Source: Spiractinospora alimapuensis
GTDB lineage: Bacteria > Actinomycetota > Actinomycetes > Streptosporangiales > Streptosporangiaceae
Direction: 5' to 3'
Assembly (NCBI RefSeq): GCF_018437505.1
Contig: NZ_CP072467.1
Location: 3,494,010-3,558,009, forward strand
Length of the DNA: 64,000 nt
Made by a program: the position numbers and the translations under genes. Numbering within the stretch: the stretch's first letter is position 1; every line of letters begins with the position of its first letter. Positions 23,125-56,231 of the stretch are shown here, piece by piece. The notes under the pieces are model-generated. The model made no database searches and was not told where the DNA came from. It was given only the letters and a program-made list of their open reading frames with translations.

Positions 23125-23302
23125 CGGCTGAGCGCCGTCGACGGGTGTGATCCCGGCAAGGACAGCACTCCGTACCACCTTGCCGTCAACGGCGATGACT
23201 CGTCTGATCGGCGGCGGCGCCGATGGTCGGGTACATCGCCAGTCGGCCAGAAAACCAAGAACCCCGCCCGACCGGACGGGGTTCGTAGGCTGTGTGGTTC
23301 GG

Positions 23303-23375
23303 TGGAGCCAAGGGGATTCGAACCCCTGACCTCTGGTATGCAAAACCAGCGCTCTGCCAACTGAGCTATGGCCCC
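23303..23375 (-). tRNA. tRNA-Ala (anticodon TGC)
   Basis: The reverse complement folds as a 73-nt cloverleaf with anticodon loop TTTGCAT and the G3:U70 alanine identity pair. The 3' CCA is not fully encoded. Confidence 0.9.
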
Positions 23376-39744: not shown

Positions 39745-39790
39745 AAGACGACCCTGCGAGGCTGCCTTAGCAGCCGAGCAGGGTCGTCTT
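39745..39790. terminator. Nested stem-loop (13-bp perfect stem AAGACGACCCTGC/GCAGGGTCGTCTT, 20-nt loop containing GGCTGC/GCAGCC); likely the native tRNA-Ile terminator left at attL
   Basis: Perfect complementarity was seen directly. It lies immediately downstream (tRNA sense) of the displaced 3' tRNA-Ile fragment. Confidence 0.45.
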
Positions 39791-39796
39791 AGAGTC

Positions 39797-39840
39797 GCGT
39801 GGGCGTACGTGGACTTGAACCACGGACCTCATCCTTATCA
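39797..39840. repeat. attL: 44-bp direct repeat (3' portion of tRNA-Ile, anticodon loop to 3' end) identical to 49960-50003
   Basis: cgtgggcgtacgtggacttgaaccacggacctcatccttatcag is identical at both sites. The left copy cannot fold into a complete tRNA. Confidence 0.85.
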
Positions 39841-39922
39841 GTTCGATCCGGGTCGATCTCAGAAGTGTGCTGACGTGGACTCGGCGTCCGCCGCCGTCCG
39901 CCTGAGTCACGTGGTGTCTGGT

Positions 39923-39947
39923 CGCGTTGCTGTCACTACTGCTGTCA
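39923..39947. repeat. 25-bp direct repeat cgcgttgctgtcactactgctgtca (copy 1, inside the element's P' arm, 83 bp from the attL core)
   Basis: Identical to 49888..49912 (48 bp from the attR core). Candidate integrase arm-type site. Confidence 0.55.
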
Positions 39948-40360
39948 GACCGCATCATCGCTGAACGTCCGCCAGCCTCGCACATGCACGGACGACATGT
40001 GCGTTCCTCACTCGCGTCAGGTGGCGGTCCTCCCATCCCGGCGGCGGGTGACGGCGGTATCGAACCGGCGCGGGTTCTGGCGCGTGCGGTCTGTACCCGG
40101 GCACGTCCCGCATCGCGCCAGGTTCCGTGTCGGAACCGGGGGTCCATGGGGGCGGGAGCCCCCTGGTTCCACCAGTCCGCACCCGCGCAAGCGTCCACCG
40201 TTCGGGACCGGGCGGCAGCCCGCAGCCCGAGCGGTGGACGGGGCTGGTGCGACGGCGCGCAGCGCCGGCGCCTTGATCCCATACAGCCGGATTCGGCAGC
40301 GATTTCTACCTGAGCGCCAATGACCTCGATACATTCTTTCCGATCAAGAGATATCTACAA

Positions 40361-41362
40361 TTGGACCACCAGAAAGCAGACTTCAATCCCGACCCAAACA
40401 TTGGGCCTCGAACAAACACCAACAAGGCGATAAAATTTCAGATCCATCGGAGGATGACACGATCAAGCACAAAGAGAGGGACAACTTTGGTAAACACAGG
40501 CGAACCCGATGCAACCGATGACGCCAATCCGCCTAACAGTACAGAAGGCCCCACCACGGCTGCCTATGATCTTGCTGACACAAGATTCAGATTACATGAG
40601 AACCAGAGTGCTATCGAAAAGGAAGAGAACGGCAAGAGATACTCGTCGTGGGCCATTACATCAACCTTCGTGTTTCTGATATTGATAGCGGCACTCAACT
40701 ACATCGACCCTCCCCACACACCCCTTCTGTGGATCAACATCGGAACAGGGATTGTTGCCATTACCGCGATAATTTGGAGCGGACTAAACGTAACCCACAG
40801 AAATGCGAGCATAACAAGACTCCACTCATCACGTCGAAAATTGCGCGACGCAGAGAAGAACGCCAGGATTCGCGTATCCGATCGAGACTTGACACGAATC
40901 CTCTGGAACTACCACTCGGACATCGCGGCAGCCATCGATGACTACAGAGCCAGCGCTCGCAGCTACAGGACCATCCACAATAGATTCCAGACCTTCATCA
41001 TTGTTGTCTCCCTCCTGGTTACCGCAGTAACCACCGCCTCTGCACAGTTCTCTGGACTCGAATGGATCGCCGCAGTCCTCAGCTTCTTGGTCGCCGTATC
41101 GACAGGAATTCTTGGCTACTTCAAGTTCCGCGATCGCGGAGTAAACTTACAACGAGCGGCGGATGACCTGGAATACGAATACAATTCAGTCGAACTTGGG
41201 ATCAATTCTTACCGCAATGAGGAGAATACAGACAAACGTCTGAAGCTATTTGCAGAAAAATCCGAGTCCATCAAAATTGAACAAAGGAAGCGAGAGCAAC
41301 AAATGGAGCAAGGCCCAGAGCAGCAGACGACATCCGGCGGCAGCGAAGGCTCAGGACAATAG
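40361..41362 (+). CDS. AT-rich cargo gene: 4-TM membrane protein with tandem SLATT/DUF4231-like 2-TM modules (predicted pore-forming/effector-type)
   Basis: The ORF is far lower in GC than the rest of the window. It has two pairs of TM helices, each followed by a basic/acidic helix (…YRTIHNRFQTFIIVVSLLVTAVTTA…LSFLVAVSTGILGYFKFRDRGVNLQRAADDLEYEY). The pattern matches DUF4231/SLATT. The start is uncertain (TTG 40361 or ATG 40454). Confidence 0.55.
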   Translation: MDHQKADFNPDPNIGPRTNTNKAIKFQIHRRMTRSSTKRGTTLVNTGEPDATDDANPPNSTEGPTTAAYDLADTRFRLHENQSAIEKEENGKRYSSWAITSTFVFLILIAALNYIDPPHTPLLWINIGTGIVAITAIIWSGLNVTHRNASITRLHSSRRKLRDAEKNARIRVSDRDLTRILWNYHSDIAAAIDDYRASARSYRTIHNRFQTFIIVVSLLVTAVTTASAQFSGLEWIAAVLSFLVAVSTGILGYFKFRDRGVNLQRAADDLEYEYNSVELGINSYRNEENTDKRLKLFAEKSESIKIEQRKREQQMEQGPEQQTTSGGSEGSGQ

Positions 41363-41414
41363 ATCTCGCATCATCCCATGAATTCATCTTGCTTCATTCC
41401 TGTAAAGTGTCCCC

Positions 41415-42197
41415 ATGAGCCCGGAACGACTCATAAACCTTGGGCAAGAGCTTGGCCGCCTGAGAAAGTCAGTCGGACAGTCAGGCCGCACGTTGGCCTT
41501 CCTAGCGTCGGTCCCACAGCCGACCATATCCCGCGTTGAGAACGGACAGCGGGTGCGATCGGTTGAGGTGGTCGAACGCATCATTTCTGCTTTGCCGCTG
41601 GATGAGGGCGAGGCGGCCCGGTTGCGATCGAATGCGCGGGCCGCGTATGCGGAGGAGGCTCCTCCTCGGATCGATTCGGGGTTCTCGCTGAAGTCGGACG
41701 CTGTGCGCAGGTTGGAACGTTCGGCGACGGTGGTGTGGAGCTTTCAGTCCGCGGTACTGCCTCGGCTGCTCCGGACTGCCGAGTACAGCCAGGCTGCGGG
41801 CATGCCGCGTCTGAACAGTTCGGATCTCCTCGACGACGAGAGTCGAGCCTTCCGGTTCCTGGTGACTGAGGGCGCGCTGCGGACCTGGCCGGGTGCCGCC
41901 GAAGTGATGCCAGGTCAGCTCAACCACCTGACGTACGCGTCGACCCGGCCGAACCTATGGCTCGGTGTAATCCCCTGGTCGACGCCCATGCACACCATGC
42001 CTCCCCACGGGTTCACCGTGTACGACCAAGCGGCGGTGTCGGTGGAGACCTTCACGGCCGAGTTGACGATCACTGACCCGAACGACGTGACCGCCTACCG
42101 GGACGCCTTCGCAGATCTGGAACGCGCTGCCGTGACTGGGGACGAAGCACTGGCCGTGTTGGACACGATCCGTGAGGACCTCGGACGATTCCATTGA
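41415..42197 (+). CDS. XRE-family HTH regulator with DUF5753 C-domain (Scr1-like)
   Basis: HTH (GRTLAFLASVPQPTISRVENGQR) plus DUF5753. Paralogous to the chromosomal copy at 23802-24635. Confidence 0.75.
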   Translation: MSPERLINLGQELGRLRKSVGQSGRTLAFLASVPQPTISRVENGQRVRSVEVVERIISALPLDEGEAARLRSNARAAYAEEAPPRIDSGFSLKSDAVRRLERSATVVWSFQSAVLPRLLRTAEYSQAAGMPRLNSSDLLDDESRAFRFLVTEGALRTWPGAAEVMPGQLNHLTYASTRPNLWLGVIPWSTPMHTMPPHGFTVYDQAAVSVETFTAELTITDPNDVTAYRDAFADLERAAVTGDEALAVLDTIREDLGRFH

Positions 42198-42272
42198 TTC
42201 AGTGAATTCGTTGAATCATTCTGCCTTGGTGGCTTACCCTGCCCACAAGCAAGGTGTATAGCCCCCTAGACG

Positions 42273-42680
42273 ATGGTGGTTTTGATGGATCGCTGGTCTC
42301 GAATGTTCACCGCGCGCCCTGACCAAGTCGGTGCGGCGCGGGCCTTTACGTGTGGCGTACTGGAGGGACACCCCTCGTGCGATGACGCGTTGGTCGTCGT
42401 CAGCGAGCTGGCCACCAACTCCGTCCAGCACTCCTTAAGCGGGTGCTACGAGGGTCCGTTCATCGTCTCGATCGAGGTCCACGAGGAATCGGTACGTCTG
42501 AGTGTCCTGGACCTCGGCTCGGACTCCGAGCCGGTGCTTGAACAGCCAGAGGACGCCACGCAAGAACGTGGACGTGGACTGTGGTTGGTCGCGCAACTCT
42601 CCAAGGAGTGGGGTGTGGAGGCGGTGCAGGCAGAGTTCCTGCGGGTGTGGGCCGAACTCGTTCCCGAAACCGCCCCATGA
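42273..42680 (+). CDS. HATPase_c-type ATP-binding protein (RsbW/anti-sigma-factor-like Ser kinase family)
   Basis: ~135 aa with …VSELATNSVQHS… (N-box) and …ERGRGLWLVAQLSKEWGV… (G-box-like). This is the typical Streptomyces partner of XRE/DUF5753 genes. Confidence 0.7.
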   Translation: MVVLMDRWSRMFTARPDQVGAARAFTCGVLEGHPSCDDALVVVSELATNSVQHSLSGCYEGPFIVSIEVHEESVRLSVLDLGSDSEPVLEQPEDATQERGRGLWLVAQLSKEWGVEAVQAEFLRVWAELVPETAP

Positions 42681-42814
42681 CCGGTCCGCGCATGCCTCGG
42701 CGGCGCCGACTGTTCAACGCCATCAGCTCAACATCGGGCCAGGTCATGGATCCTGCCTTGTCTAGGGACCTAGACTCTCCCTCAGAGGACTGTGCGCACG
42801 AGGGAAGGGGGCCG

Positions 42815-43660
42815 ATGTCCAGCGAGTTTGAGCGCATTGCCGCCATGGAGGACCCGTTCGCGCTCCTGCGTGCGGCGACCGACCGGCTCAGTGAGGCACA
42901 GCAGGAGGTCACGGACCTGTCCCGGCTGCGCCGTCGCACAATTCAGGACCTGCACGCGCAAGGTCTCTCCTACGCGCAGATCGCCACACAGGCCGGCCTG
43001 AGCCGCGGTCGCATCCACCAGATCCGTCATACCGGTCCCGCTCCGGAAGGCGCGTTCTTCGGATCGGGCACGGTCACCATTGTCACGCCACTGCGGCCCG
43101 AGCCGGGCAAACCGCGGGCTGCAGTGTCCCTGGATGACCTCAACACCGGCAAGCGACTGGAGGACCTTGTCCGCTCCTTCGACCTGACGGTGCAGGACGA
43201 TCATGTCAGCGTTGACGGGGTGGTCGACCTGGATCGCCCTGGCCTGGTGGTCGTGTGCGGGCCGCGGATGTCGGAAGCGATGGCCAGGACCTACGCGCTC
43301 GATCCCGTGTTCGCCTGGGAACGTAACGATGCCGGCCCATGGTGTATTCGGGACCGGCGCACCGGGAAGGCCCACTACGCGGGCTCGGACGAGGCGCCGC
43401 CCTCGGCTGGTGACATCGGATACCTGGGTCGCCTTCCTCGGCCGGATGGTGCTGGCTCGATTCTGGCCATCGCTGGTATCCACCCGGTGGGCTCGCTGGG
43501 GGTGGCCCACTGGCTGACCACCGACATCGCCACCCTCTGGGGCCAGGTCGGGGATCAGGACTTCTCCGTCCTCATCCGTACCGAGTACGACCCGGACACC
43601 AATGAACCGGTGAAAACCGAGATGGCGACTCCGCTCTACCGTCACGAGGACGGGCGTTGA
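42815..43660 (+). CDS. Hypothetical protein with N-terminal sigma-70 region-4-like HTH
   Basis: ATG 42815 with GAGGGAAGGGGG upstream. HTH RRRTIQDLHAQGLSYAQIATQAGLSRGRIHQI. The C-terminal 200 aa are of unknown family. Confidence 0.5.
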   Translation: MSSEFERIAAMEDPFALLRAATDRLSEAQQEVTDLSRLRRRTIQDLHAQGLSYAQIATQAGLSRGRIHQIRHTGPAPEGAFFGSGTVTIVTPLRPEPGKPRAAVSLDDLNTGKRLEDLVRSFDLTVQDDHVSVDGVVDLDRPGLVVVCGPRMSEAMARTYALDPVFAWERNDAGPWCIRDRRTGKAHYAGSDEAPPSAGDIGYLGRLPRPDGAGSILAIAGIHPVGSLGVAHWLTTDIATLWGQVGDQDFSVLIRTEYDPDTNEPVKTEMATPLYRHEDGR

Positions 43661-44481
43661 GTTTCCGCCTGGCCACAGCTCGCGCCAAACCCGATCGGCC
43701 CAACGAGGACTTCGCCGCCGTGGGAACGAACGCGGCGGTCCTCCTCGATGGTGCGGGCACTCCGCCCGGAACCGTGTCCGGGTGCGTTCACGGAGTCGCG
43801 TGGTACGCCTCCACCCTCGGCGGGCTGCTCCTGGGGGCGCTCGGCTCTGCGAACAGTCCTGCCGGCGCGTTGGCTGACAGCATCGAGCGGGTCAACCAGC
43901 TCCACGCGGACACCTGCGACCTCAAGCACTCCGAAACACCCTCCTCCACCGTCGTCGCCCTGCGCTGGGATCACGCACACTGCGAGTACCTCGTGCTGGC
44001 GGATTCCGTGCTGGTCTTCGACCGAACCGGGAACGCGTCCCCGGACGTGGTGACAGACGACCGGGAAGCCGTCATGGGCGCTGAACTTCGCGGCCCCATG
44101 GACGCTCTACACACGGGGACGCCCGAACACTCCCGCGCGTGGAGCGACTACGCGGCCACTCTCGCCGACCACCGCAACCAACCAGGCGGATTCTGGGTCG
44201 CCAGCACCGATCCAAGCGCCGCAGACGAGGCGATCGCCGGTCGGGTGCCTCTGGACCAGGTGAACGCGGTCGCACTGCTCAGTGACGGTGCGAGCCGTCT
44301 GGTCGACCGCTTCCGCCTGACGACATGGCGCGCAACCCTCGATTCCCTCGCCCACGCCGGCCCTGCCGACCTGATCGACCAGGTCCGAACGGCAGAGCAC
44401 GGCGACCCAGACGGGCGACGATGGCCACGCGCCAAGAACCATGACGATGCGACCGTGATCTACGGACACCCCAGAGCCTGA
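43657..44481 (+). CDS. PP2C-family (SpoIIE/PP2C_2-like) protein phosphatase
   Basis: Carries NEDF, LLDGAGT and LLSDGASRLV motifs typical of PP2C_2 metal-binding sites. The TTG start overlaps the upstream stop (TTGA). Confidence 0.6.
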   Translation: MSFRLATARAKPDRPNEDFAAVGTNAAVLLDGAGTPPGTVSGCVHGVAWYASTLGGLLLGALGSANSPAGALADSIERVNQLHADTCDLKHSETPSSTVVALRWDHAHCEYLVLADSVLVFDRTGNASPDVVTDDREAVMGAELRGPMDALHTGTPEHSRAWSDYAATLADHRNQPGGFWVASTDPSAADEAIAGRVPLDQVNAVALLSDGASRLVDRFRLTTWRATLDSLAHAGPADLIDQVRTAEHGDPDGRRWPRAKNHDDATVIYGHPRA

Positions 44482-44603
44482 ATACCCCCCTAGACAACCG
44501 GCGGACATCGCGCTACCTTTTGTCTATACCCCTAGACAACATCAACGGGAATTAGGCGTTCGCAGCGTCTAGGGGGCTAAACGGACAAGAGAGAGGCTGA
44601 CCG

Positions 44604-45008
44604 ATGGCGATTCAAGGTGCGCTTCCGGTGGAGTTCGGAGTCGTGTTCCCGCACGGTGCTTTCGCGCTCGGCGTGGAGGCGATCACGGATTTCGAGACGA
44701 AGAAGCCGCAGATGGACAAGGCGACCGGGTTGCCGCTGTGGGCGGTGGAGGTGATCGACGCCGATCCGGAAGCGCGCGGTAAGGCGAAGTCGGTGAAGGT
44801 GAAGGTTGCCGCGGACGTGTGCCCGACACTGCCGGATGAGGTGGGCGGTATGCCGTTTCGCCCGGTCGAGTTCGAGTCGATGTCCGTCGTGCCCTACGTC
44901 GACGACAACGGGCGCCGACCGCGTGTGGCCTACTCGCTGCGTGCTCGCGGTGTGAGGACCCCCGGATCTGGGGCGCGAAAGTCGCCTGCGGCCAAGGAAG
45001 CCGCCTAG
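44604..45008 (+). CDS. Hypothetical AICE protein (134 aa)
   Basis: ORF of normal GC immediately upstream of the tra/rep operon. No motif recognised. Confidence 0.4.
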   Translation: MAIQGALPVEFGVVFPHGAFALGVEAITDFETKKPQMDKATGLPLWAVEVIDADPEARGKAKSVKVKVAADVCPTLPDEVGGMPFRPVEFESMSVVPYVDDNGRRPRVAYSLRARGVRTPGSGARKSPAAKEAA

Positions 45009-45105
45009 AACGACGGTGGGGCGGCGCGATGTTGGCGCATCACGTCGCCCCGGAATCCTCCCCCTGCTATCCCTTGCGAAGACCTGGAAGAGGTGTCCCC
45101 TCATT

Positions 45106-45369
45106 ATGTCCGACCACCCTGCCCAAGTCCGTCTGGCTGCGCAGATCTCGCACTTCCTCGCTCTGGCCGGAGAGCGGATGCGCCGCCCCGCTGGCGACGT
45201 CATGGCCCCGGATGACGACCTGGCGTTCTTCGAACACAAGGCCGCGCTGTTCACGCGGATCGCCGCTGAGAGCCCCGATGACGAGCTCCGCCAGGAGGTG
45301 GCCGCCCGCGCGCGTGCTCAACTGTCCGAGGCGTTGCGGCGCCACGGGGTGGGCGGGGGCGAGCGGTGA
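45106..45369 (+). CDS. Hypothetical small AICE protein (87 aa)
   Basis: Internal ATG of ORF 45016..45369. Its stop overlaps the traB start (GTGATG). Confidence 0.3.
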   Translation: MSDHPAQVRLAAQISHFLALAGERMRRPAGDVMAPDDDLAFFEHKAALFTRIAAESPDDELRQEVAARARAQLSEALRRHGVGGGER

Positions 45370-46805
45370 TGGCGTTCCTGAGCAACGGGGCCACCCAAGT
45401 ACAGCCGACGGTGCCGCTTCCCTCTTCCGCGCTGCGCTTCACGACGCCTGTGGTGCGCACACCGGCCGCCTTCGTCCTCGCTGGCTGGTTGCTACGCCTC
45501 CTGACCTTCACTGCCAAGCTCCCCCTCCGTTTCCCCACGGCGGTCACCCTGGCCGCGACTTCGTCCGTGGTCGCTTCCATGCTGGGCTGGGTCGCCGCGA
45601 CTGGGCTATGGGTGGTGCTCGGGACGCTGCTGGGCGTGTGGGCCTGGCGTCGACCGGCCTCCTTTCGCCGGCTGGTCACGCTGCGCCTGCTGGCGGCATG
45701 GCGGTGGTGGTGGGTCTACGCTCGCCACTGGCAACCCGTGCTGGTGGTCGCTGGGCTGGCGGAGTCCTACGCTGAGCGGCGCTACCTGCCGCGGATTCGC
45801 CGCGTGCGCTGCACGGACCATTCCGATCGGGTGCGCGTACGTCTCGTCTCCGGCACCGCGCCCTCCGACGTCGAGAAGCGGGTCACCGAGCTTGCCCACG
45901 GGTTCGGCGCACCGTCGTGTCGGGTGGAGGTCGCCGGTCCGCGGGACGTGGTGCTGGAGTTCCCTCGCTTCGATCCGCTGGCCGACCCGGTCGATGCCCT
46001 GGACGTTCCCGCAACCGCCTCCCCGGCCGCACTGCCCATAGGAGTTCGGGAGGACGGCGGTACCTGGTGGCTGCGGCTGCACGGCACCCATGTTCTGACC
46101 GTGGGAGTGACCGGCGCCGGGAAGGGGTCGGTGATCTGGTCGACGATCCGTGCCCTGCTCCCCGGGGTGGACGACGGGTCGGTACAGATCTGGGCGATCG
46201 ACCCCAAGCGTATGGAGCTCTCCTTCGGGCGGCGCCTGTTCGCGCACTACGCAGACACCGCTGAGTCCGCGGTGGACCTGCTGGAACAGGCAGTTGCCGA
46301 CATGCAGGGACGAGCGTCGCGCTACGCCGGGCACCAACGCACCCACCGGCCTACCAAACGTGACCCCTTCGTGGTCGTCGTGGTCGACGAGGTGGCCTTC
46401 CTGACCGCCTACCACCCTGACCGCGACATCCGGCGGCGTGCGGAGAACGCGATCGCCACCCTCACCTCGCAAGGGCGCTCGGTCGGGTTCTCAGTACTCG
46501 CCGCCTTGCAGGATCCCCGCAAGGAGGTGCTGAACCTCCGCAACCTGTTCCCCGACAAGATCGCCCTCCGGCTCGACGAGGCGTCCCAGGTTGACATGGT
46601 GCTCGGTGCGGACGCTCGGGAACGGGGCGCCAACGCACACCTGATCGATCCGGCGCTCCCTGGGGTCGGATTCGTGCGCTGTGAAGGTTCACCCGTCCCA
46701 CTGAGGGTCCGGGCCGCGTTCGTCACCGACGACGACATCGACCACATGGCCGACCACCACGCCCGTCCCGCACTGTCGGCCGTACCCCACGAGGGGGCCG
46801 CCTGA
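45366..46805 (+). CDS. traB: FtsK/SpoIIIE-family DNA translocase (AICE transfer protein TraB/TraSA-like)
   Basis: N-terminal TM helices, Walker A VGVTGAGKGS, Walker B VVVVDEVA. Translationally coupled to repSA. Confidence 0.8.
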   Translation: MMAFLSNGATQVQPTVPLPSSALRFTTPVVRTPAAFVLAGWLLRLLTFTAKLPLRFPTAVTLAATSSVVASMLGWVAATGLWVVLGTLLGVWAWRRPASFRRLVTLRLLAAWRWWWVYARHWQPVLVVAGLAESYAERRYLPRIRRVRCTDHSDRVRVRLVSGTAPSDVEKRVTELAHGFGAPSCRVEVAGPRDVVLEFPRFDPLADPVDALDVPATASPAALPIGVREDGGTWWLRLHGTHVLTVGVTGAGKGSVIWSTIRALLPGVDDGSVQIWAIDPKRMELSFGRRLFAHYADTAESAVDLLEQAVADMQGRASRYAGHQRTHRPTKRDPFVVVVVDEVAFLTAYHPDRDIRRRAENAIATLTSQGRSVGFSVLAALQDPRKEVLNLRNLFPDKIALRLDEASQVDMVLGADARERGANAHLIDPALPGVGFVRCEGSPVPLRVRAAFVTDDDIDHMADHHARPALSAVPHEGAA

Positions 46806-48487
46806 TGCCAACCCCAACCGGCAAGAGCACCCGTGCCGAACGTATGGCCCAACCTCTCGCGCGTGAGGTGGCCGAACAGATCGCGGCCGACAAGGGGGTC
46901 TGCATCCGCCCTGTCTCGCTGCGACGTGTTGATACGCGTACCGGAGACTCCGAGGTGATCGACGTTCCGTGCGGCTCGACCCTCGAATCTCGGTGTCCGG
47001 CCTGCGCCAAGCGCAAGCGATCGATCCGCCGCACCCAATGCGAGGAAGGGTGGCACCTGGCAGAGGACCCCACACCCGAACCCAACGATCCCACCGAGGT
47101 TCAGCGCTCCTGGGTGGAACAGCGCGCTCTCGTGACCGCGGAACGCGACCTCCTGGCCACCACCGACCTCGACGCCGACCGCCTGGCCGCGCTGGACGCC
47201 GCGATCGCCGACCTGGACGAAGAGATCAAAGCGTCCGGGCTTCGGGGATCGGTGTCTCCTCGCTCGTCCTCGTCGGGCACCTCCCGGCGCGTGCGTTCCA
47301 CCAAACGGCGCAAGGACGCACCAGACCTCCCTAAACGCCAGATGGCCAAAACGACCGTGGGGCGGTCCTACGAGGACCCCGCGACGGGCAAGACGTTCCG
47401 ACCGTCGCTTTTCCTCACCCTCACCTGCGACACCTACGGGCGCGTGAAGCCCGATGGCACGCCGGTGGATCCCGCGACCTACGACTACCGGCGGGCCGCG
47501 CGGGACGCGTTGCACTTCTCCAAGCTCATCGACCGGTTCGTGCAGAACCTGCGGCGCGTGGCGGGCTTCGATGTCCAGTACTTCGCGACGGTCGAACCCC
47601 AACGCAGGCTGGCACCGCACCTGCACATGGCCACGCGTGGGACGCTCCCACGGGCCGAGTTGCGCCAGATCGCCGCCGCCACCTACCACCAAGTCTGGTG
47701 GCCACACGTCGACAAGCCCCTCTACGGCGGCACCAACCTGCCTGGCTGGGACGAGTCGATCGATGGCTATGTCGACAGGACCACAGGGGAAGTACTGCCC
47801 ACCTGGGACGAAGCGTTGGACGCGCTCGATGCCGACCCCGATGCCGAACCCATGCACGTCGTCCGCTTCGGCCCCCAGATCGACGCCAAGGGCGTGGTGG
47901 CCGGCACCCAGGACGCCGATCGGTGCGTGCGGTACCTCGCGAAGTACCTCACCAAGGACATCGCCGACTGCCACGACATCGAGTCCTCAGCACAGGAACG
48001 ACACGTGGAACGCCTCGTGGACGCGCTGCGCTTCGAACCCTGCTCGCCCCGGTGCTCGAACTGGCTGCGCTACGGCATCCAACCCCAGGACGCCAAAGCG
48101 GGCATGACCCCCGGATACTGCCGCTCCAAGGCCCACCGCCGCGAACACCTCGGCTACGCGGGCCGGCGGGTCCTCGTCTCCCGCAAGTGGTCCGGCAAGA
48201 CACTCGCCGACCACAAGGCCGACCGCCTGGCCTGGGTCCTCGACGCCCTGGGCATCGATCCCAACACCAACCCCACGGACGAGGGCCAGGGCGACGGCCT
48301 CACACTCACACCGCCCGCGGATTCCTCCGGTCACCACACCTGGGAACTCGCCAGACCGACTGACCCCGACGTCCCGCCACGGGAACATCGGCTCCTCCGT
48401 GCGGTCGGTGAGGCCCTGAAACGCCGTGCGCGACTCGACCACGCACGCGAGACCAACCGTTCGGCAACCAGAGAGGCCGCGGCATGA
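46805..48487 (+). CDS. repSA: Rolling-circle replication initiator, RepSA family
   Basis: 560-aa protein with Cys-rich N-terminus and a HLHMATRG region. Position between tra and xis-int is typical of pSAM2-type AICEs. ATGA overlap with traB. Confidence 0.7.
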   Translation: MPTPTGKSTRAERMAQPLAREVAEQIAADKGVCIRPVSLRRVDTRTGDSEVIDVPCGSTLESRCPACAKRKRSIRRTQCEEGWHLAEDPTPEPNDPTEVQRSWVEQRALVTAERDLLATTDLDADRLAALDAAIADLDEEIKASGLRGSVSPRSSSSGTSRRVRSTKRRKDAPDLPKRQMAKTTVGRSYEDPATGKTFRPSLFLTLTCDTYGRVKPDGTPVDPATYDYRRAARDALHFSKLIDRFVQNLRRVAGFDVQYFATVEPQRRLAPHLHMATRGTLPRAELRQIAAATYHQVWWPHVDKPLYGGTNLPGWDESIDGYVDRTTGEVLPTWDEALDALDADPDAEPMHVVRFGPQIDAKGVVAGTQDADRCVRYLAKYLTKDIADCHDIESSAQERHVERLVDALRFEPCSPRCSNWLRYGIQPQDAKAGMTPGYCRSKAHRREHLGYAGRRVLVSRKWSGKTLADHKADRLAWVLDALGIDPNTNPTDEGQGDGLTLTPPADSSGHHTWELARPTDPDVPPREHRLLRAVGEALKRRARLDHARETNRSATREAAA

Positions 48488-48675
48488 GTGCCCTTCCGAC
48501 GCGACGCCTACTGACCGTCCCCGAAGTCATGGGCGCGTTGCGCCTCGGGCGCTGGAAGGTCTATGAGCTGATCCGATCCGGCCGGCTGAAGTCGGTGAAG
48601 ATCGGGCGCGACCGCCGCATCCCCACAGAAGCCCTGGACACGTTCATCTCCGAGCTACGAGAGGAAGCCGCCTGA
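48484..48675 (+). CDS. xis: Excisionase (Xis, HTH_17/MerR-like DNA-binding)
   Basis: 63 aa. LTVPEVMGALRLGRWKVYELIRSGRLKSVKIGRDRRIP is the excisionase pattern. Overlaps repSA and int. Confidence 0.7.
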   Translation: MSALPTRRLLTVPEVMGALRLGRWKVYELIRSGRLKSVKIGRDRRIPTEALDTFISELREEAA

Positions 48676-49886
48676 TGGCCACACGTAACCCCGCTTCTCG
48701 TGACGAGCCGGAAGGCCGCAAAGGCAAACGCGACCGTGCCAACGGGGAGGGAACGGTCTACCAGCGCAACGACGGTCGGTGGGTCGCTGAAGCGTACGTA
48801 CTCGCCTCGGATGGTTCCCTGAAGCGCGTTCAGCGCTATGCCCGTACGCGCAAAGCGGCCTATGACAGGCTCACGGCGCTTCAGGAGAACAGCAACCGGA
48901 ACATCGCGGTTCCGAATCGCCCGTGGAAGCTGGGGGAGTACCTCGACTACTGGCTGGAGCACGTGGCCAAGCCGTCGGTGCGGGCGACGACCTACGCCAA
49001 GTACGAGCAGATGGTGCGCCTGTACTTGAAACCAGAGCTCGGCAGTCAGCGACTCGACCGGCTACGGGTCGCCACGATCCAGACGTGCCTCAACGGGCGG
49101 CTGAAAGGAGGCGACTCTATCGCCAAGGTGCACGCGATGCGCACCACGCTCAGCTCGGCGCTGACCCGTGCCATGCGGGAAGAGCTGATCACGGTGAATC
49201 CCGCTCGGCTCGTCACTCTGCCCGCGGAGTCGCCCGAACGGCTCAGGCCCTGGAACGCCGAGGAGGGGAGGCGGTTCCTCGACCACGCCCGAAGCCACCA
49301 CCTGTACCCGGTGTTCGTGCTCATGCTCATCTACGGGCTGCGGCGGGGCGAAGTGCTGGGGCTGTCCTGGGAGGACGTCGACCTGGAACAGGACGTCATG
49401 TCGATACGTCGCCAAGTCCAACGCGTTGACGGTTCCCTCGAACTGGTGGAGGTGAAGACGCGCGCCGGTCGGCGGTCATTGCCGCTGCTGTCCTGGGCTC
49501 GCGACGCCCTGACCGATCAAGCGCAATGGCAGACGCGGAAGCGCCGCACCGCCGGAGAGGCTTGGGTCGATACCGGCCTCGTCTTCACCACCAGGACCGG
49601 GCGGGCGATCCAGCCGCGGAACCTGTCACGCAGCTTCGAACGACTGTCGGCGTCAGCCGGCATGCGCCCTATCCGGCTGCACGACCTGCGGCACTCGGCG
49701 GCCTCGTTGCTCAAGCGTTCTGGAGTCGCTCCGCGGGACGCGATGGAGATCCTCGGGCACAGCCGGATCTCGGTCACGATGGAGATCTACACGCACAGCG
49801 ACGAGGAGACGCAGCGGGAAGGGCTCGGCCGACTGGGCGGGGCGCTCTTCGGCGACGAGGACGAGAACCAGAACGGGGATTCGTGA
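48675..49886 (+). CDS. int: Tyrosine-type site-specific integrase
   Basis: Phage-integrase C-terminal catalytic residues (…R…, HDLRHSAASLL, …Y…). Adjacent to the tRNA attachment site. Confidence 0.9.
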   Translation: MATRNPASRDEPEGRKGKRDRANGEGTVYQRNDGRWVAEAYVLASDGSLKRVQRYARTRKAAYDRLTALQENSNRNIAVPNRPWKLGEYLDYWLEHVAKPSVRATTYAKYEQMVRLYLKPELGSQRLDRLRVATIQTCLNGRLKGGDSIAKVHAMRTTLSSALTRAMREELITVNPARLVTLPAESPERLRPWNAEEGRRFLDHARSHHLYPVFVLMLIYGLRRGEVLGLSWEDVDLEQDVMSIRRQVQRVDGSLELVEVKTRAGRRSLPLLSWARDALTDQAQWQTRKRRTAGEAWVDTGLVFTTRTGRAIQPRNLSRSFERLSASAGMRPIRLHDLRHSAASLLKRSGVAPRDAMEILGHSRISVTMEIYTHSDEETQREGLGRLGGALFGDEDENQNGDS

Positions 49887-49887
49887 C

Positions 49888-49912
49888 CGCGTTGCTGTCA
49901 CTACTGCTGTCA
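49888..49912. repeat. 25-bp direct repeat (copy 2), begins 2 nt after int stop
   Basis: Identical to 39923..39947. Confidence 0.55.
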
Positions 49913-49945
49913 AAGGCCCCTGCCGGATTCCGGACAGGGGCCTTT
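49912..49945. terminator. Stem-loop AAAGGCCCCTG-(ccggattccgga)-CAGGGGCCTTT downstream of int
   Basis: 11-bp perfect stem with an inner CCGGA/TCCGG mini-stem. Putative int terminator, or part of the P arm. Confidence 0.45.
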
Positions 49946-49959
49946 GTGCAGCTTATGGA

Positions 49960-50003
49960 CGTGGGCGTACGTGGACTTGAACCACGGACCTCATCCTTAT
50001 CAG
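49960..50003. repeat. attR: 44-bp direct repeat, lying within the intact tRNA-Ile
   Basis: Identical to 39797..39840. Confidence 0.85.
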
Positions 50004-50035
50004 GGATGCGCTCTAACCGACTGAGCTATACGCCC
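49962..50035 (-). tRNA. tRNA-Ile (anticodon GAT)
   Basis: 74-nt cloverleaf on the reverse complement. Acceptor GGGCGTA/TACGCCC, anticodon stem CATCC/GGATG, loop CTGATAA, T-loop TTCAAGT. Confidence 0.9.
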
Positions 50036-50100
50036 GCAACCGGGGGAAACTTTACCGCATCTGTGCCGTGGCGGCGAACTGGTGCGGTTCTGGGTTCAGT

Positions 50101-51734
50101 CTAGCGTGTGCGGCGGATCCATGCGGCCGTGTTTCCGGGGAGTTCGGGGGTGTGGATGGGGTGGCTGGAGATGAGGATTTCGCCGGGGGGGAGGGGGGTG
50201 GGGGTGGGGCCGGTGTTGACGAGGACGAGGACTGAGGGGTCGCGTCGGAAGGCGAGGACGGGGCCGGTGTTGTGGTGGGGGTCCCAGTCGAGGGTTTCGG
50301 TGGGGGTGAGCTGGCGGCGGATGGCGAGGGCCGCTCGGTACAGCTCGAGCGTCGAGGTGGGGTCGCCGGTTTGGGCTTGGACGGATTCCTCGGCCCAGTG
50401 GGGTGGTTGGGGGAGCCAGGTTCCGTTGGGGCCGAAGCCGAGGGACGCGCCGGTGCGGGTCCAGGGGAGGGGGACGCGGCAGCCGTCTCGGCCTTTCATG
50501 GTGTGGTCGCTGCGCGCGTACTTGGGGTCTTCGATTGAGTCCGGTGGGAGGTCGGCGACCTCTTCGAGGCCGAGTTCCTCGCCTTGGTAGAGGTAGGCGG
50601 ATCCGGGGAGCGCGAGTTCGAGGAGGGCGGCGGCGCGGGCGCGGCGTCGGCCCAGGTCGAGGTCGGCGGCAGGGGCGGTCCCGTCGCTGAGGAGCCATTT
50701 CTCGAGGTCGGTTCCGGGCGGGAGTCCCAGCACGGAGGGCTGGCGCACGGTGTCGTGGTTGGCGAGGACCCATGTCACCGCCGAGGAGACGGATCGGGCG
50801 GCGGCGATGGAGGCGTCGATCACCTGTCGGTAGGCGTCAGCGTCCCAGGGGCAGGAGAGGAAGTCGAAGTTGAAGGCCTGGTGGAGTTCGTCGGGCCGGG
50901 TGTAGCGGACGCGCCGATCGCTGGGCAGCCACGTCTCGGCGACGGCCATGCGGGGCTCGTCGTACTCGTCGAGGACCGCACGCCACTCCGGTACACCTCG
51001 TGCACGTTGGGGCGGTCGAGGTAGGGGTGGTCGGGGTTCGCGTTGAGGTCGTCGAGTCGGTTGCCGCCCTCGACCACGGTCACGTCGCGCAGCGGGTCCG
51101 CGAGGTCCTTGTTGAGCGCGTAGGCGACGTCGATACGGAACCCGTCCACACCACGGTCGGCCCAGAAGCGCAGGATGTCCCGGAACTCGGCGCGGACCTC
51201 GGGGTTGTCCCAGTTGAAGTCGGGCTGCTCACGGGCGAACAGGTGGAGGTACCACTGGCCGTCCGCCACTCGGGTCCAGGCGGGGCCGCCGAAGGTCGAG
51301 ACCCAGTTCGTGGGGGGCAGTTCGCCGTTGGTTCCGCGCCCGTCCCGGAACACGTACCGGTCGCGGGCGGGCGATCCGGGTGCGGCGGCGAGCGCGTCCT
51401 GGAACCAGCGGTGGAGGACAGAGCTGTGGTTGGGGACGACGTCGATCAGGATCTTGAGACCGCGATCGTGCGCGGCGCGCACGAGAGCGTCGAAGTCCGC
51501 CAGTGTGCCGAGCAGGGGGTCCACGTCGCGGAAGTCCGCGACGTCGTATCCGCCGTCGGCCCACCCTGAGGGGTAGAAGGGGGAGAGCCACAGGCCGTCG
51601 ACGCCCAGTGCCGCGAGGTGGTCGAGGCGCTCGGTGACGCCGGCGATGTCGCCCACGCCGTCGCCGTCAGCGTCGGCGAAGCTCCGGGGGTAGACCTGGT
51701 AGATCACGGCGTCGCGCCACCATGGAGAAGTCAC
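50101..51734 (-). CDS. GH13 alpha-glucosidase / oligo-1,6-glucosidase family; frame broken by an apparent 1-nt deletion at ~50986-50991
   Basis: The N-terminus (WWRDAVIYQVYPRSFAD…DVVPNHSS…GFRIDVA) is in one frame and the C-terminus (MAVAETWLP…) in another. The junction reads HEVYR|EWRAVLDEYDEPRMAVAE when one G is added. GTG start with GGAGG upstream. Confidence 0.75.
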
Positions 51735-51771
51735 GTCCCGCCTCCAGCTCGTTCGTCGGGTGCTCGTCGGG

Positions 51772-52790
51772 TCAGGCCCCGGGTCGGGGCGTGGTGTCGA
51801 GGTGGACCGGCGTAGGACCAGTTGCGTGGGCAGTACCACGTGATAGTCCCGGGGCACGTCCCCCTCGAGGGCCGAACCAGCGAGTTGCCCCGCCTGGAAG
51901 CCCAGGTCGTAGACGGGTTGCGCGACCGTGGTCAGGTCGAGAACCTCCGCTACGTCGTTGTTGTCGAAGCCGACGACGGAGATCGCGTCGGGCACCGCGA
52001 CCCTCGAGCGCTGCAGGGTCGTGAGGACACCCATCGCGATGTCGTCGGACTCGGCGAGTACAGCGGTGGGAACTGTATCGCTGGACAGCAGTTCGGCCAT
52101 GCCCGACGCGCCGCCACGGTGTCCCGGCCCACCGATGACGAGCCTGCGGGGCAGGCCGGCCGCCGCCATCGCCTCCGCGTGCCCCCGCCACCGCTCGTCG
52201 GAGGTCCAGGCGAACCCGGTGGCGTCGCGGGATCCGATGAAGGCGACGTCAGTGTGCCCGAGGTTGAGCACGTGCCGGGTGGCCGCGACGGACGCCGCCT
52301 CGTTGTCGATATAGACACTGGGATACTCGTCGACCCGCTGGTTGCAGAAGACCAGCGGCACGCCGAGCTCGTCGAGACGGGCCCGCTCGGTGGTCTTCAA
52401 GTCCAGGGCGACCGCGATCACGGCGTCGGCGTTACGGCTCAGCGGTAGTCGCCGCAGGCACGCGTCGAGCTGGCCGACGTCGCCCACCTGGTACACGAGG
52501 AGGTCGAGGTCCGCGTCCCGGAGGGCGTCGCTCACGCCGGCCAGCGCCACGCCGAAGAACCAGGGCTGGAGGAACGGCACCAGCGCCGCGATCCTCCCGG
52601 TGCGCCCGGTGACGAGCCCGGACGCGTTGCGGGACACCACGTAGGACAGTTCCCGCGCGCAGCGTTCCACCCGGCGGCGAACCTCGGGATCAACCCCGGG
52701 CGCGCCGCGCAGAGCCCGGGACACGGTCGACAGGGACACTCCCGCTCGGTCGGCCACGTCCCGCATGCGCGAACCAGGGGAGTTCTGCAT
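51772..52790 (-). CDS. LacI-family transcriptional regulator
   Basis: HTH MRDVADRAGVSLSTVSRAL plus a periplasmic-binding-like sugar domain. No in-frame stop before the glucosidase. A TGA at 51772-51774 in the +1 frame sits right before the glucosidase RBS, which suggests another 1-nt indel. Confidence 0.65.
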
Positions 52791-53014
52791 GATCCTCACG
52801 GTATGGCGGAATCGACCGTCTTGGCAACGTTTTCACAATCTCCCAGGTGATTTCTTCCCCTATAGCGCACCACAAATGTCTATAGCCCGACTTACGGGTG
52901 TTGACCATGTCACATCCACCTGGCAACGTTTGCACTGTCCGAGTTCGCATCGTCCGGCTGGAAAATCCAGCTCGTCGGCACCAGTGCCGTCGGGACCGTG
53001 AGCGAGGGAGCATC

Positions 53015-54322: not shown

Positions 54323-54327
54323 GGACC

Positions 54328-56111: not shown

Positions 56112-56231
56112 GCGGGGGAACGGGAGCCGGAGCCAGCGCAGGCGCGAACGACGGACGCCTTGTCTCCACAGGTCTGTGGAGACAAGGCGCCATGTCGACA
56201 ATCGCCTCGATCCGGCGGGCGATGCCCCGGT

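What the first reader, a model, noticed from the sequence alone, without database searches (positions are those of the whole stretch)
39797..50003. AICE-type integrative element inserted in tRNA-Ile(GAT)
A perfect 44-bp direct repeat covers the 3' half of tRNA-Ile. One copy lies inside the intact tRNA (49962-50035). The other (39797-39840) cannot fold into a tRNA. The 10.1 kb between them carries int-xis-repSA-traB, all overlapping by ATGA/GTGATG, which is the pSAM2-like AICE backbone. The native tRNA terminator hairpin (39745-39790) is displaced to the far end. This region is accessory DNA and holds the most unusual cargo in the window.
Basis: partly seen in the sequence, partly recalled or inferred. 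Interest (0 to 1): 0.6.

Follow-up and report, generated by a model that had tools for sequence, protein, structure and literature searches.

The report
Conjugative element inserted in tRNA-Ile
A 10.1 kb self-transmissible plasmid-like element (an actinomycete integrative and conjugative element of the pMR2/pSAM2 kind) sits intact in the tRNA-Ile gene of Spiractinospora alimapuensis. It is an ordinary member of a known class, but it uses a conserved four-gene control module that I found described nowhere, in place of the textbook repressor.

Summary
Int, Xis, RepSA and an FtsK/TraB translocase all pass HMM searches. The element is an AICE of the pMR2 type (pra-tra-rep-xis-int).

Related elements with Int at 61-88% identity lie at tRNA-Ile(GAT) in Lipingzhangella, Nocardiopsis, Sphaerisporangium and a metagenome contig. 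Where both ends are present, they have repeats in the same register and the same arm-type repeats around the core.

Most of the supposed unusual cargo is backbone. The genes for XRE-DUF5753, HATPase_c_2, a sigma-region-4 HTH protein and a PP2C phosphatase occur in the same order upstream of pra-traB-repSA-xis-int in all seven other lineages I sampled. They come with conserved CCCCTAGAC boxes in the promoter regions. A sister element in Nocardiopsis carries a GntR (KorSA-like) regulator instead.

The only true cargo is an AT-rich SLATT/DUF4231 membrane protein, and it recurs in the same slot of another AICE. A conserved structured non-coding stretch carries a pC194-type CTTGAT nick motif and is probably the replication origin.

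Verdict: new member of a known kind, low-to-moderate interest. The regulatory module is the part worth following.

The parts
39745..39790 (-). Native terminator hairpin of tRNA-Ile, now separated from the gene by the element. It lies outside the element.
   Evidence: Inverted repeat I2. On the tRNA strand it folds at -46.6 kcal/mol and is followed by a U-rich tail. Equivalent hairpins sit just outside attL in L004 and L005.
39798..39841 (.). attL core: a 44-nt copy of the 3' half of tRNA-Ile (anticodon loop to 3' end).
   Evidence: 100% identical to 49960-50003. No tRNA is called here. L004 (44 nt) and L005 (43 nt) have a repeat in the same register.
39923..39947 (+). P' arm-type repeat (GCTGTCA-CTACT-GCTGTCA), a candidate Int arm-binding site.
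   Evidence: Perfect 25-nt copy of 49888-49912. It is conserved in sequence and in distance from the core in L004 and L005. Precedent: pACPL and pSAM2 arm-type sites (PMC3364876).
40036..40200 (.). Conserved, highly structured non-coding block. Candidate single-strand origin or Rep-binding region (inferred).
   Evidence: 74-86% identical to L004 and also conserved in L005. The wider stretch 40020-40320, which includes this block, folds with a DNA z-score of -4.2 (+) and -3.5 (-). The hairpins are kept in 3 sequences with a few compensatory changes. There is no codon-position GC signal.
40204..40305 (+). Conserved hairpins followed by CCTTGATCCCATACAGCC. CTTGAT at 40272-40277 is a candidate double-strand-origin nick site for RepSA.
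   Evidence: The 18-mer is exact in the window, L004, L005 and L017 (which has a different Int and tRNA), and has 4 mismatches in pMR2. Hairpins are conserved. CTTGAT is the pC194-family nick site and pSAM2 belongs to that family (PMC2440964).
40454..41362 (+). Cargo: a four-TM SLATT/DUF4231 membrane protein, AT-rich (50.6% GC).
   Evidence: NF033634 SLATT_1 at 81 bits and PF14015. The source genome annotates a 302-aa form. Four hydrophobic segments. A 64% homolog occupies the same attL-proximal slot of another AICE, L017. It is AT-rich in three hosts.
41415..42197 (+). XRE HTH_31 + DUF5753 regulator (WhiJ-like).
   Evidence: PF19054 at 102 bits and PF13560. It holds the same position in L005, L008, L010-16, L030 and L032. 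The WhiJ/AbaA pairing is described in PMC10294661.
42259..42272 (+). Operator-like box TAGCCCCCTAGACG, abutting the start codon of the HATPase_c_2 gene.
   Evidence: Equivalent boxes are found in L005, L008 and L010-12.
42273..42680 (+). HATPase_c_2 protein (RsbW/SpoIIAB/AbaA-like anti-sigma-type kinase fold).
   Evidence: PF13581 at 50 bits. Weak PDB match to RsbW, E=0.003.
42760..42775 (.). Palindromic box GTCTAGGGACCTAGAC, upstream of the HTH gene.
   Evidence: The same palindrome lies upstream of the L005 homolog.
42815..43660 (+). Sigma-70-region-4-like HTH protein with a C-terminal alpha/beta domain. Candidate master regulator that binds the CCCCTAGAC boxes (inferred).
43657..44481 (+). 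PP2C_2-type (PPM) phosphatase-like protein. Its TTG start overlaps the HTH gene's stop.
   Evidence: PF13672 at 26.5 bits. NED, DG and SDG acidic motifs are invariant in 5 homologs.
44483..44579 (.). Three boxes in the pra promoter region: two direct (44483-44496, 44525-44538) and one inverted (44566-44579).
   Evidence: All 4 exact CCCCTAGAC 9-mers of the 64-kb window lie in the element's intergenic regions, against 0.33 expected. The two-direct-plus-one-inverted layout recurs in L005, L008, L010-12 and L014-16.
44604..45008 (+). Pra-like activator gene.
   Evidence: 42% identity to a protein annotated 'plasmid replication, integration and excision activator' on a Streptomyces plasmid, and 37% to pMR2. 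80-83% identity to L004 and L005.
45106..45369 (+). Small conserved-position ORF (87 aa) of unknown function.
   Evidence: A small ORF sits in the same position in all relatives, with weak sequence conservation at 16-42% identity. No family hit.
45366..46805 (+). TraB-type FtsK/SpoIIIE double-stranded-DNA translocase.
   Evidence: PF01580 E=4e-10 and NF041214 plasmid_TraB, well below its cut-off. Walker A GVTGAGKGS, Walker B VVVVDE and an N-terminal TM segment. 41% identity to pMR2 Tra.
46805..48487 (+). RepSA rolling-circle replication initiator (pMR2 subtype).
   Evidence: PF20199 at 334 bits. HLH (HUH) and YLAKY motifs. 52% identity to pMR2 Rep.
48484..48675 (+). Excisionase (Xis).
   Evidence: PF12728 HTH_17 at 46.7 bits. 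ATGA overlap with repSA.
48675..49886 (+). Tyrosine integrase specific for tRNA-Ile(GAT).
   Evidence: PF00589 plus PF14659. R...HxxR...H...Y residues present. Homologs at 61-88% identity all abut tRNA-Ile(gat).
49888..49912 (+). P arm-type repeat, 47 nt from the core.
   Evidence: The same spacing is seen in L004 and L005.
49912..49945 (.). Element-borne bidirectional terminator hairpin that now serves the rebuilt tRNA-Ile and int.
   Evidence: Folds at about -40 kcal/mol. Conserved in L003, L004, L005 and L008.
49960..50035 (-). attR core (49960-50003) inside the intact tRNA-Ile(GAT) (49961-50035).

Best explanation

Integration. A tyrosine integrase recombined the element's attP with the tRNA-Ile(GAT) gene that lies a few kb from gyrBA. 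attP consists of a 44-nt core identical to the anticodon-loop-to-3'-end half of the tRNA, flanked by GCTGTCA-N5-GCTGTCA arm-type sites. Integration rebuilt the tRNA from element DNA and left the old 3' half and its terminator at attL.

Life cycle (inferred from the pSAM2 model). On induction, Xis and Int excise a circle. RepSA nicks a CTTGAT origin in the conserved non-coding block next to attP and replicates the circle by the rolling-circle mode. The single TraB (FtsK-like) protein pumps double-stranded DNA into a recipient hypha, where Int reintegrates it.

Control. The pra-orfX-traB-repSA-xis-int genes lie head to tail, several of them overlapping, behind a Pra-like activator gene. The promoter of that gene carries three CCCCTAGAC boxes. 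The element has no KorSA (GntR) repressor or Pif (Nudix). Instead it carries a conserved four-gene module: a WhiJ-like XRE-DUF5753 protein, an AbaA/RsbW-like HATPase_c_2 protein, a sigma-region-4 HTH protein with an alpha/beta sensor-like domain, and a PP2C phosphatase.

I propose that the HTH protein binds the boxes, and that the kinase-like protein and the phosphatase set its activity. That would make the transfer decision a phosphorylation or partner-switch decision. This step is inferred, not shown.

Cargo. The only cargo is an AT-rich SLATT membrane protein, probably a conflict or exclusion effector.
For: Shown by the sequence:
- att repeats and tRNA.
- All four hallmark proteins by HMM and their catalytic motifs.
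- No phage structural proteins.
- pMR2 homology: RepSA 52%, TraB 41%, Pra 37%.

Shown by comparison:
- Int homologs at 61-88% identity in five loci all abut tRNA-Ile(gat).
- L004 and L005 have 44- and 43-nt repeats in the same register, each matching its own host's tRNA, and arm repeats at the same distances.
- Each host has its own native hairpin outside attL and shares the element-borne hairpin inside attR.
- The non-coding block is conserved and structured, with an exact CCTTGATCCCATACAGCC also present in an element with a different Int and in pMR2.

Regulatory module:
- Same four genes in the same order in L005, L008, L010-13, L014-16, L030 and L032.
- The boxes are conserved in place and number and are non-random.
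- The HTH segment of the sigma-like protein is invariant across 26 homologs.
- The sister element L004 has a GntR gene plus a different palindrome and no boxes.

Literature: the pSAM2 control circuit, the CTTGAT nick site and pMEA300 at tRNA-Ile (PMC2440964); the pra-tra-rep-xis-int family (PMC3218068); arm-type repeats flanking the att identity segment (PMC3364876).
Against: - No excised circle, empty attB or transfer has been observed. Activity is inferred from intactness alone.
- No Spd (spread) proteins, Nudix or GntR genes are present, so the element is a minimal version and could be transfer-defective.
- The box-to-HTH assignment is an inference. The XRE protein also has a fairly conserved HTH and could be the box binder.
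- There is no STAS-domain partner, so this is not a canonical partner-switching set. The C-terminal domain of the HTH protein matched only generic alpha/beta folds.
- The Sigma70_r4 and PP2C_2 Pfam scores are marginal: 23.8 bits against a cut-off of 24.1, and 26.5 against 24.
- The origin assignment rests on a 6-nt motif plus conservation.
Confidence: 0.88

Rival explanations
1. It is a defective, fixed remnant of an AICE. It was inherited vertically in Nocardiopsaceae and is no longer mobile, kept only because it rebuilds tRNA-Ile and carries useful regulators.
For: - Related elements sit at the same tRNA in several genera of the family.
- One of them (L003) lacks a detectable attL within 10 kb, and L008 has a decayed remnant next to it.
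- No spd, Nudix or kor genes are present.
- No empty site could be found.
Against: - The 44/44 and 25/25 repeats are perfect, although the attL half-tRNA is under no selection.
- All eleven ORFs are open with coupled starts.
- The regulatory module differs between the Nocardiopsis element (GntR) and the Spiractinospora, metagenome and Sphaerisporangium elements (four-gene module). The cargo also differs in every element. Neither fits simple vertical descent.
- The left flanks are unrelated between hosts.
Confidence: 0.1
2. It is an integrated temperate phage or phage satellite using a tRNA-Ile integrase, not a conjugative element.
For: - The integrase matches phrog_1 strongly at 245 bits.
- The XRE and HATPase_c_2 proteins also match PHROG families.
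- The element is small and inserted in a tRNA.
Against: - No capsid, portal, terminase, tail or lysis protein appears in PHROGs or Pfam.
- A RepSA rolling-circle initiator plus a TraB-type FtsK translocase plus a Pra-like gene is the AICE signature.
- The backbone is collinear with the characterised AICE pMR2.
Confidence: 0.02

Closest known systems
pMR2 of Micromonospora rosaria (11.2 kb AICE; the RepSA-MR2 / Tra-pMR2 family of Ghinet et al. 2011, PMC3218068)
   Same: The pra-(small orfs)-tra-rep-xis-int module is in the same order. Identities are RepSA 52%, TraB 41%, Pra-like 37% and Xis 39%. A similar CCTTGATC...TACAG...CAATTCGGCAAC motif lies in the non-coding DNA. Size is about 10-11 kb.
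   Different: The Int is unrelated in practice (23% identity) and pMR2 targets tRNA-Phe (PMC2440964). pMR2 carries a UTRA/GntR-type regulator, DUF2637 and several small spread-type ORFs. The window element has none of these and carries the XRE / HATPase_c_2 / HTH / PP2C module instead.
pSAM2 of Streptomyces ambofaciens (the paradigm AICE)
   Same: It has the same life-cycle logic: a repSA-xis-int operon activated by Pra, an att identity segment in the 3' part of a tRNA, arm-type Int sites flanking the attP core, rolling-circle replication with a pC194-type nick site, and a single FtsK-like Tra protein (PMC2440964, PMC3364876).
   Different: pSAM2 targets tRNA-Pro. Its control uses KorSA (GntR) and Pif (Nudix), both absent here. 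Its RepSA belongs to the other subfamily (RepSA-SAM2). The NCBIfam RepSA and TraB equivalog models score far below their cut-offs here: 28.9 bits against 700, and 33.6 against 800.
pMEA300 of Amycolatopsis methanolica
   Same: It is an AICE that also integrates in a tRNA-Ile gene (table in PMC2440964).
   Different: It has a RepAM replication protein, a different Tra clade and KorA regulation. Whether it uses the same isoacceptor and the same sublocation in the tRNA was not checked here.
WhiJ-AbaA-BldB loci of Streptomyces (PMC10294661)
   Same: An XRE-DUF5753 DNA-binding protein sits next to a HATPase_c anti-sigma-like protein. WhiJ9 binds direct repeats in an adjacent intergenic region.
   Different: No DUF397/BldB partner was seen among the called genes. 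Here the pair is fused into a fixed four-gene unit with a sigma-r4 HTH protein and a PP2C phosphatase, on a mobile element.

Membership tests
[quoted passage not shown] | Site-specific recombinase (tyrosine or serine) at one end, next to attP | tested here: met
   PF00589 at 88.6 bits plus PF14659. Catalytic R, HxxR, H and Y are present. The gene ends 74 nt from the core.
[quoted passage not shown] | Flanking direct repeats (att identity segment), typically the 3' end of a tRNA gene | tested here: met
   Perfect 44-nt repeat, one copy inside tRNA-Ile(gat).
[quoted passage not shown] | Own replication initiator (RepSA, RepAM or Prim-Pol) | tested here: met
   PF20199 RepSA at 334 bits against a cut-off of 34. 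HUH and Y motifs present.
[quoted passage not shown] | Single FtsK/SpoIIIE-domain Tra protein instead of a type IV secretion system | tested here: met
   PF01580 at 39.9 bits against a cut-off of 24. Walker A and B motifs and a TM segment. 41% identity to pMR2 Tra. No T4SS components appeared among the Pfam hits.
[quoted passage not shown] | GntR- or XRE-family regulator | tested here: met
   XRE HTH_31-DUF5753 protein. No GntR.
[quoted passage not shown] | Excision, autonomous replication and conjugative transfer actually occur | not testable with these tools
   This needs junction PCR, read evidence or mating assays. The metagenome scan for junctions was uninformative.
pMR2-type family (pra-tra-rep-xis-int, RepSA-MR2, Tra-pMR2) | Conserved module pra, tra, rep, xis, int in this order | tested here: met
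   The order was verified. It is collinear with pMR2.
pMR2-type family (pra-tra-rep-xis-int, RepSA-MR2, Tra-pMR2) | RepSA and Tra fall in the pMR2 clades by phylogeny | tested here: inconclusive
   Only pairwise identity to pMR2 was measured (52% and 41%). No tree against the RepSA-SAM2 set was built. The NCBIfam pSAM2-type RepSA equivalog scores only 28.9 bits against 700, which fits a non-SAM2 type.
pSAM2 control circuit (KorSA-Pra-Pif) | GntR repressor KorSA acting on the pra promoter | tested here: not met
   No GntR domain appears in any ORF of the element. The pra promoter carries CCCCTAGAC boxes rather than the GntR-type palindrome seen in L004.
pSAM2 control circuit (KorSA-Pra-Pif) | Nudix immunity factor Pif | tested here: not met
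   No NUDIX hit. One is present in the GntR-type relative L017.
pSAM2 control circuit (KorSA-Pra-Pif) | Pra activator upstream of the transfer and replication genes | tested here: met
   orf134 is 42% identical to an annotated 'plasmid replication, integration and excision activator'. Its function as an activator was not tested.
Partner-switching module (RsbW/RsbV/RsbU type) | Anti-sigma kinase (HATPase_c_2) plus PP2C phosphatase plus STAS-domain antagonist | tested here: not met
   The kinase-like and PP2C-like proteins are present, but no Pfam search found a STAS domain. The alpha/beta domain of the HTH protein does not match SpoIIAA/STAS folds.

The most novel reading that the evidence does not exclude
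The four-gene unit (WhiJ-like XRE-DUF5753, AbaA/RsbW-like HATPase_c_2, a 280-aa sigma-region-4 HTH protein with an alpha/beta sensor-like domain, and a PP2C phosphatase), together with its CCCCTAGAC boxes, is an undescribed master switch for conjugative transfer. It replaces KorSA/Pif in a very widespread family of AICEs found in Streptomyces, Actinomadura, Nocardiopsaceae, Streptosporangiaceae and Carbonactinospora. In this reading, a phosphorylation or partner-switch step on a sigma-like DNA-binding protein decides when pra, and hence excision, replication and transfer, is turned on.
Probability: 0.45. Interest if true: 0.55.

Novelty: new member of a known kind. Interest (0 to 1): 0.33.

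Why it matters
As an AICE in a tRNA gene, this is routine accessory DNA. It marks a small mobile island a few kb from gyrBA in S. alimapuensis, and it could serve as an integrating vector (int plus attP) for Nocardiopsaceae.

The more useful result concerns what looked like cargo. It is a conserved control module shared by hundreds of elements in antibiotic-producing actinomycetes, and it has clear candidate operators. AICE regulation is known in detail for little beyond pSAM2 (KorSA/Pra/Pif). A second, interchangeable control logic would be directly testable by EMSA on the CCCCTAGAC boxes, by deleting the kinase-like and phosphatase genes, and by measuring excision. It also links the large, poorly understood WhiJ/AbaA paralog families to mobile elements.

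The recurrent AT-rich SLATT gene in the cargo slot adds a candidate conflict or exclusion effector carried by AICEs.

Tried and rejected
1. Empty attB. The single genome-contig scan, run with the left-flank YidC-like protein, found only Nocardiopsis coralli at 73% identity. That locus has no tRNA nearby, so it is not syntenic. The left flanks of L004 and L005 are unrelated to the window. The test therefore could not be made.

2. Exact-protein look-up of the window Int returned nothing, although the homology search later found the 100% match in S. alimapuensis.

3. A megablast of the whole element against PLSDB plasmids gave only a 47-nt tRNA-like hit.

4. A metagenome scan for the core+TTCGA junction, meant to catch free attP circles, returned 11 short contigs. 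They carry related arm repeats but other tRNA-Ile variants and no Int homolog, so there is no clear attP evidence.

6. PADLOC found no recognised defence system, only weak SLATT/2TM hits.

7. Rfam found nothing in the conserved non-coding block.

8. The consensus promoter/terminator scan found no sigma-70-type promoter and did not call either tRNA hairpin, because their T-tails are interrupted.

9. The prophage reading is rejected, because there are no structural genes.

10. Repeat family D1 inside traB/repSA and inverted repeats I1 and I5 were not followed up. I took them for chance or coding-sequence matches.

Full report

Yes. ARAGORN finds tRNA-Ile(gat) at 49961-50035 on the minus strand, and Rfam scores it at 74.8 bits. 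The repeat finder returns a perfect 44-nt direct repeat at 39798-39841 and 49960-50003.

On the tRNA strand the repeat starts in the anticodon loop (CTGATAAGG) and runs to the 3' end. No tRNA is called at the left copy.

The hairpin at 39745-39790 exists. On the tRNA strand it folds at -46.6 kcal/mol and is followed by a U-rich tail.

A codon-position GC profile shows that all real genes between the repeats are on the + strand.

**2. Gene content**

| Gene | Coordinates | Evidence |
|---|---|---|
| int | 48675-49886 | Phage_integrase plus SAM-like N-domain |
| xis | 48484-48675 | HTH_17, 46.7 bits |
| repSA | 46805-48487 | PF20199, 334 bits |
| traB | 45366-46805 | FtsK_SpoIIIE, E = 4e-10 |

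- Catalytic motifs are present: Int R/HxxR/H/Y, RepSA HLH and YLAKY, TraB Walker A and B with a TM segment.
- PHROGs finds no capsid, portal, terminase, tail or lysis protein, so this is not a prophage.
- orf134 (44604-45008) has no HMM family. It is 42% identical to a protein annotated 'plasmid replication, integration and excision activator' on a Streptomyces plasmid, and 37% identical to a pMR2 protein.
- Against the characterised AICE pMR2, identities are RepSA 52%, TraB 41%, Xis 39% and Int only 23%.
- The backbone is therefore the pra-tra-rep-xis-int module that Ghinet et al. defined for pMR2-type AICEs (PMC3218068), joined to a different integrase.

**3. Source and relatives**

The Int protein is 100% identical to a protein of Spiractinospora alimapuensis. 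The nearest Int homologs are:

| Source | Int identity | Locus |
|---|---|---|
| Lipingzhangella sp. | 88% | L003 |
| Nocardiopsis sediminis | 82% | L004 |
| soil metagenome contigs | 82% | L005, L006 |
| Sphaerisporangium fuscum | 61% | L008 |

In every case the int gene abuts tRNA-Ile(gat).

- L004 has a perfect 44-nt repeat and L005 a perfect 43-nt repeat, in the same register as the window. Each matches its own host's tRNA, whose T-stem differs from the window's.
- L003 has no detectable attL within 10 kb. L008 has a decayed integrase fragment next to its attL. Together these show both decay and repeated use of this site.
- gyrB, gyrA and a DUF3566 gene lie a few kb to the right in the window. 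In L004 and L008 the tRNA follows DUF3566 directly.

**4. The attachment site**

A second perfect repeat, CGCGTTGCTGTCACTACTGCTGTCA, lies at 39923-39947 and 49888-49912. Both copies are inside the element.

In the circular form they would flank the core, 47 nt away on the int side and 81 nt away on the other side. Sequence and spacing are both conserved in L004 and L005.

This matches published arm-type integrase sites. In pACPL a 43-nt identity segment is flanked by two 21-nt repeats like those that pSAM2 Int binds (PMC3364876).

A conserved hairpin at 49912-49945 lies between int and the tRNA in all relatives. Each host has a different native hairpin just outside attL.

**5. A conserved non-coding block: the probable origin**

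- 39799-40301 is 74-86% identical to L004 although it shows no coding signal.
- It folds far better than shuffled sequence on both strands, with z-scores of -4.2 and -3.5.
- Its hairpins are kept in three elements.
- It ends in CCTTGATCCCATACAGCC. This 18-mer is exact in L004, L005 and L017, and L017 has a different Int and tRNA. It is recognisable in pMR2.
- CTTGAT is the nick site of the pC194 family, to which pSAM2 belongs (PMC2440964).
- I therefore read 40204-40305 as the RepSA double-strand origin. The hairpin cluster at 40036-40200 would be a single-strand origin or a Rep-binding region. This is inference.

**6. The 'cargo' is mostly backbone**

The four genes concerned are:

| Coordinates | Protein |
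|---|---|
| 41415-42197 | XRE HTH_31-DUF5753 |
| 42273-42680 | HATPase_c_2 |
| 42815-43660 | sigma-region-4-like HTH protein |
| 43657-44481 | PP2C_2 |

- These four genes occur in the same order, directly upstream of pra-traB-repSA-xis-int, in L005 and L008.
- Starting from homologs of the HTH protein, I found the same arrangement in Streptomyces (L010-13), Carbonactinospora (L014-16), Haloactinospora (L030) and Actinocorallia (L032), with several different integrases.
- All seven other lineages sampled show this arrangement.
- The sister element L004 has the same pra-to-int backbone at 72-82% identity, but carries a GntR gene and an ACCTATCAGGT-type palindrome instead. The regulatory module is therefore exchangeable.

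**7. Candidate operators**

- All four exact CCCCTAGAC 9-mers of the 64-kb window lie in the element's intergenic regions, against 0.33 expected; none of 100 shuffles reached four.
- One box abuts the HATPase_c_2 start codon.
- A palindromic GTCTAGGGACCTAGAC lies upstream of the HTH gene.
- Three boxes, two direct and one inverted, lie upstream of pra.
- The pra-promoter triplet recurs in L005, L008, L010-12 and L014-16. The boxes before the HATPase_c_2 and HTH genes recur in most of these loci. L004 has none.
- The HTH protein is 62-88% identical across the best 120 of its 531 homologs, and its helix-turn-helix is invariant. That makes it the best candidate box binder. The XRE protein remains possible.

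**8. What the module proteins look like**

- The PP2C-like protein keeps its NED, DG and SDG acidic motifs.
- The HATPase_c_2 protein weakly resembles RsbW and SpoIIAB.
- The XRE / HATPase_c pair is the WhiJ/AbaA type known from Streptomyces development (PMC10294661).
- Full-text searches found no paper that links this module to AICEs. That is absence in the searched library, not proof of novelty.

**9. True cargo**

- 40454-41362 encodes a four-TM SLATT/DUF4231 protein.
- Its GC content is 50.6%, against 68% for the window.
- Homologs are few, and all the named ones are actinomycete.
- The 64% homolog in Nocardiopsis sp. FIRDI 009 sits in the same attL-proximal slot of a GntR-type AICE with another integrase.
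- Three homologs are all AT-rich in GC-rich hosts.
- Other elements fill the same slot with a Cap4 nuclease, Fic plus a kinase, or Dcm plus Vsr. The slot looks like a hotspot for conflict genes.
- PADLOC recognises no complete defence system here.

**10. Mechanism and verdict**

The best explanation is an intact pMR2-type AICE. It integrates by Int at the anticodon-loop-to-3'-end segment of tRNA-Ile. It would be excised by Xis and Int, replicated by RepSA from a CTTGAT origin, and transferred as double-stranded DNA by TraB. These life-cycle steps are inferred from pSAM2 (PMC2440964).

Pra-dependent expression would be gated by the four-gene module through the CCCCTAGAC boxes, which is my inference.

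Mobility of this particular copy is not shown. The perfect repeats, the open reading frames, and the differences in cargo and regulatory module between relatives argue against a fixed relic. No empty site or circular junction could be obtained.

tRNA-Ile is already a known AICE target, through pMEA300 (PMC2440964).

The finding is a new member of a known kind. Its most interesting aspect is the conserved alternative control module, which I found described nowhere.

Noticed in passing
window 50101-52799 (minus strand): One ORF (50820-52799) reads a LacI HTH, a periplasmic-binding-type sugar sensor and the N-terminal half of an alpha-amylase catalytic domain in a single frame. The C-terminal half of the amylase domain is in another frame (50101-50949), overlapping by 130 nt. 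This looks like a regulator-enzyme fusion plus a frameshift, meaning a pseudogene or a sequencing error.
   Followed up: no
window 50036-56231: In Nocardiopsis sediminis (L004) and Sphaerisporangium (L008), tRNA-Ile follows the DUF3566-gyrA-gyrB genes directly. In the window about 6 kb (LacI/amylase plus two + strand genes) lies between DUF3566 (56232-56993) and the tRNA. This is a second, unexplained insertion on the other side of the tRNA.
   Followed up: partly
L008 240-711: Just left of the Sphaerisporangium element's attL there is a 129-aa integrase C-terminal fragment (74% DNA identity to the resident int), a hairpin and a half tRNA. This is the remnant of an earlier element at the same site, i.e. 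tandem accretion.
   Followed up: partly
window 40454-41362; L017 10001-10876; L018 10001-10858: The SLATT/DUF4231 gene is about 51-53% GC in three hosts of 67-69% GC. The AT-richness is conserved rather than a sign of recent import. It may reflect silencing or expression control of a toxic membrane protein.
   Followed up: partly
L010-L012, about 14027: In the Streptomyces versions of the element, an extra CCCCTGGAC-type box lies just upstream of repSA, and DUF2637/SpdB spread genes are inserted between traB and repSA. The Nocardiopsaceae elements lack both.
   Followed up: no
L019-L029 (metagenome contigs): Eleven short soil contigs carry a tRNA-Ile 3' half, then TTCGAT and, about 90 nt on, a doubled GTTGCCGTCAC motif. 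This is the same attL/P'-arm layout with a variant arm repeat and other tRNA T-stems. It suggests a much wider set of tRNA-Ile-targeting elements.
   Followed up: partly
window 39798-39841 versus L004 897-940: The att cores of sister elements differ at paired T-stem positions (CGTGG/CCACG versus CCAGG/CCTGG), yet each is identical to its own host's tRNA. Each element's attP is therefore matched to its host, which points to transfer among close relatives or to homogenisation of the two copies.
   Followed up: no
window 23301-23375: tRNA-Ala(tgc) lies 16.5 kb to the left of attL on the same strand. It was not examined for integrated elements.
   Followed up: no
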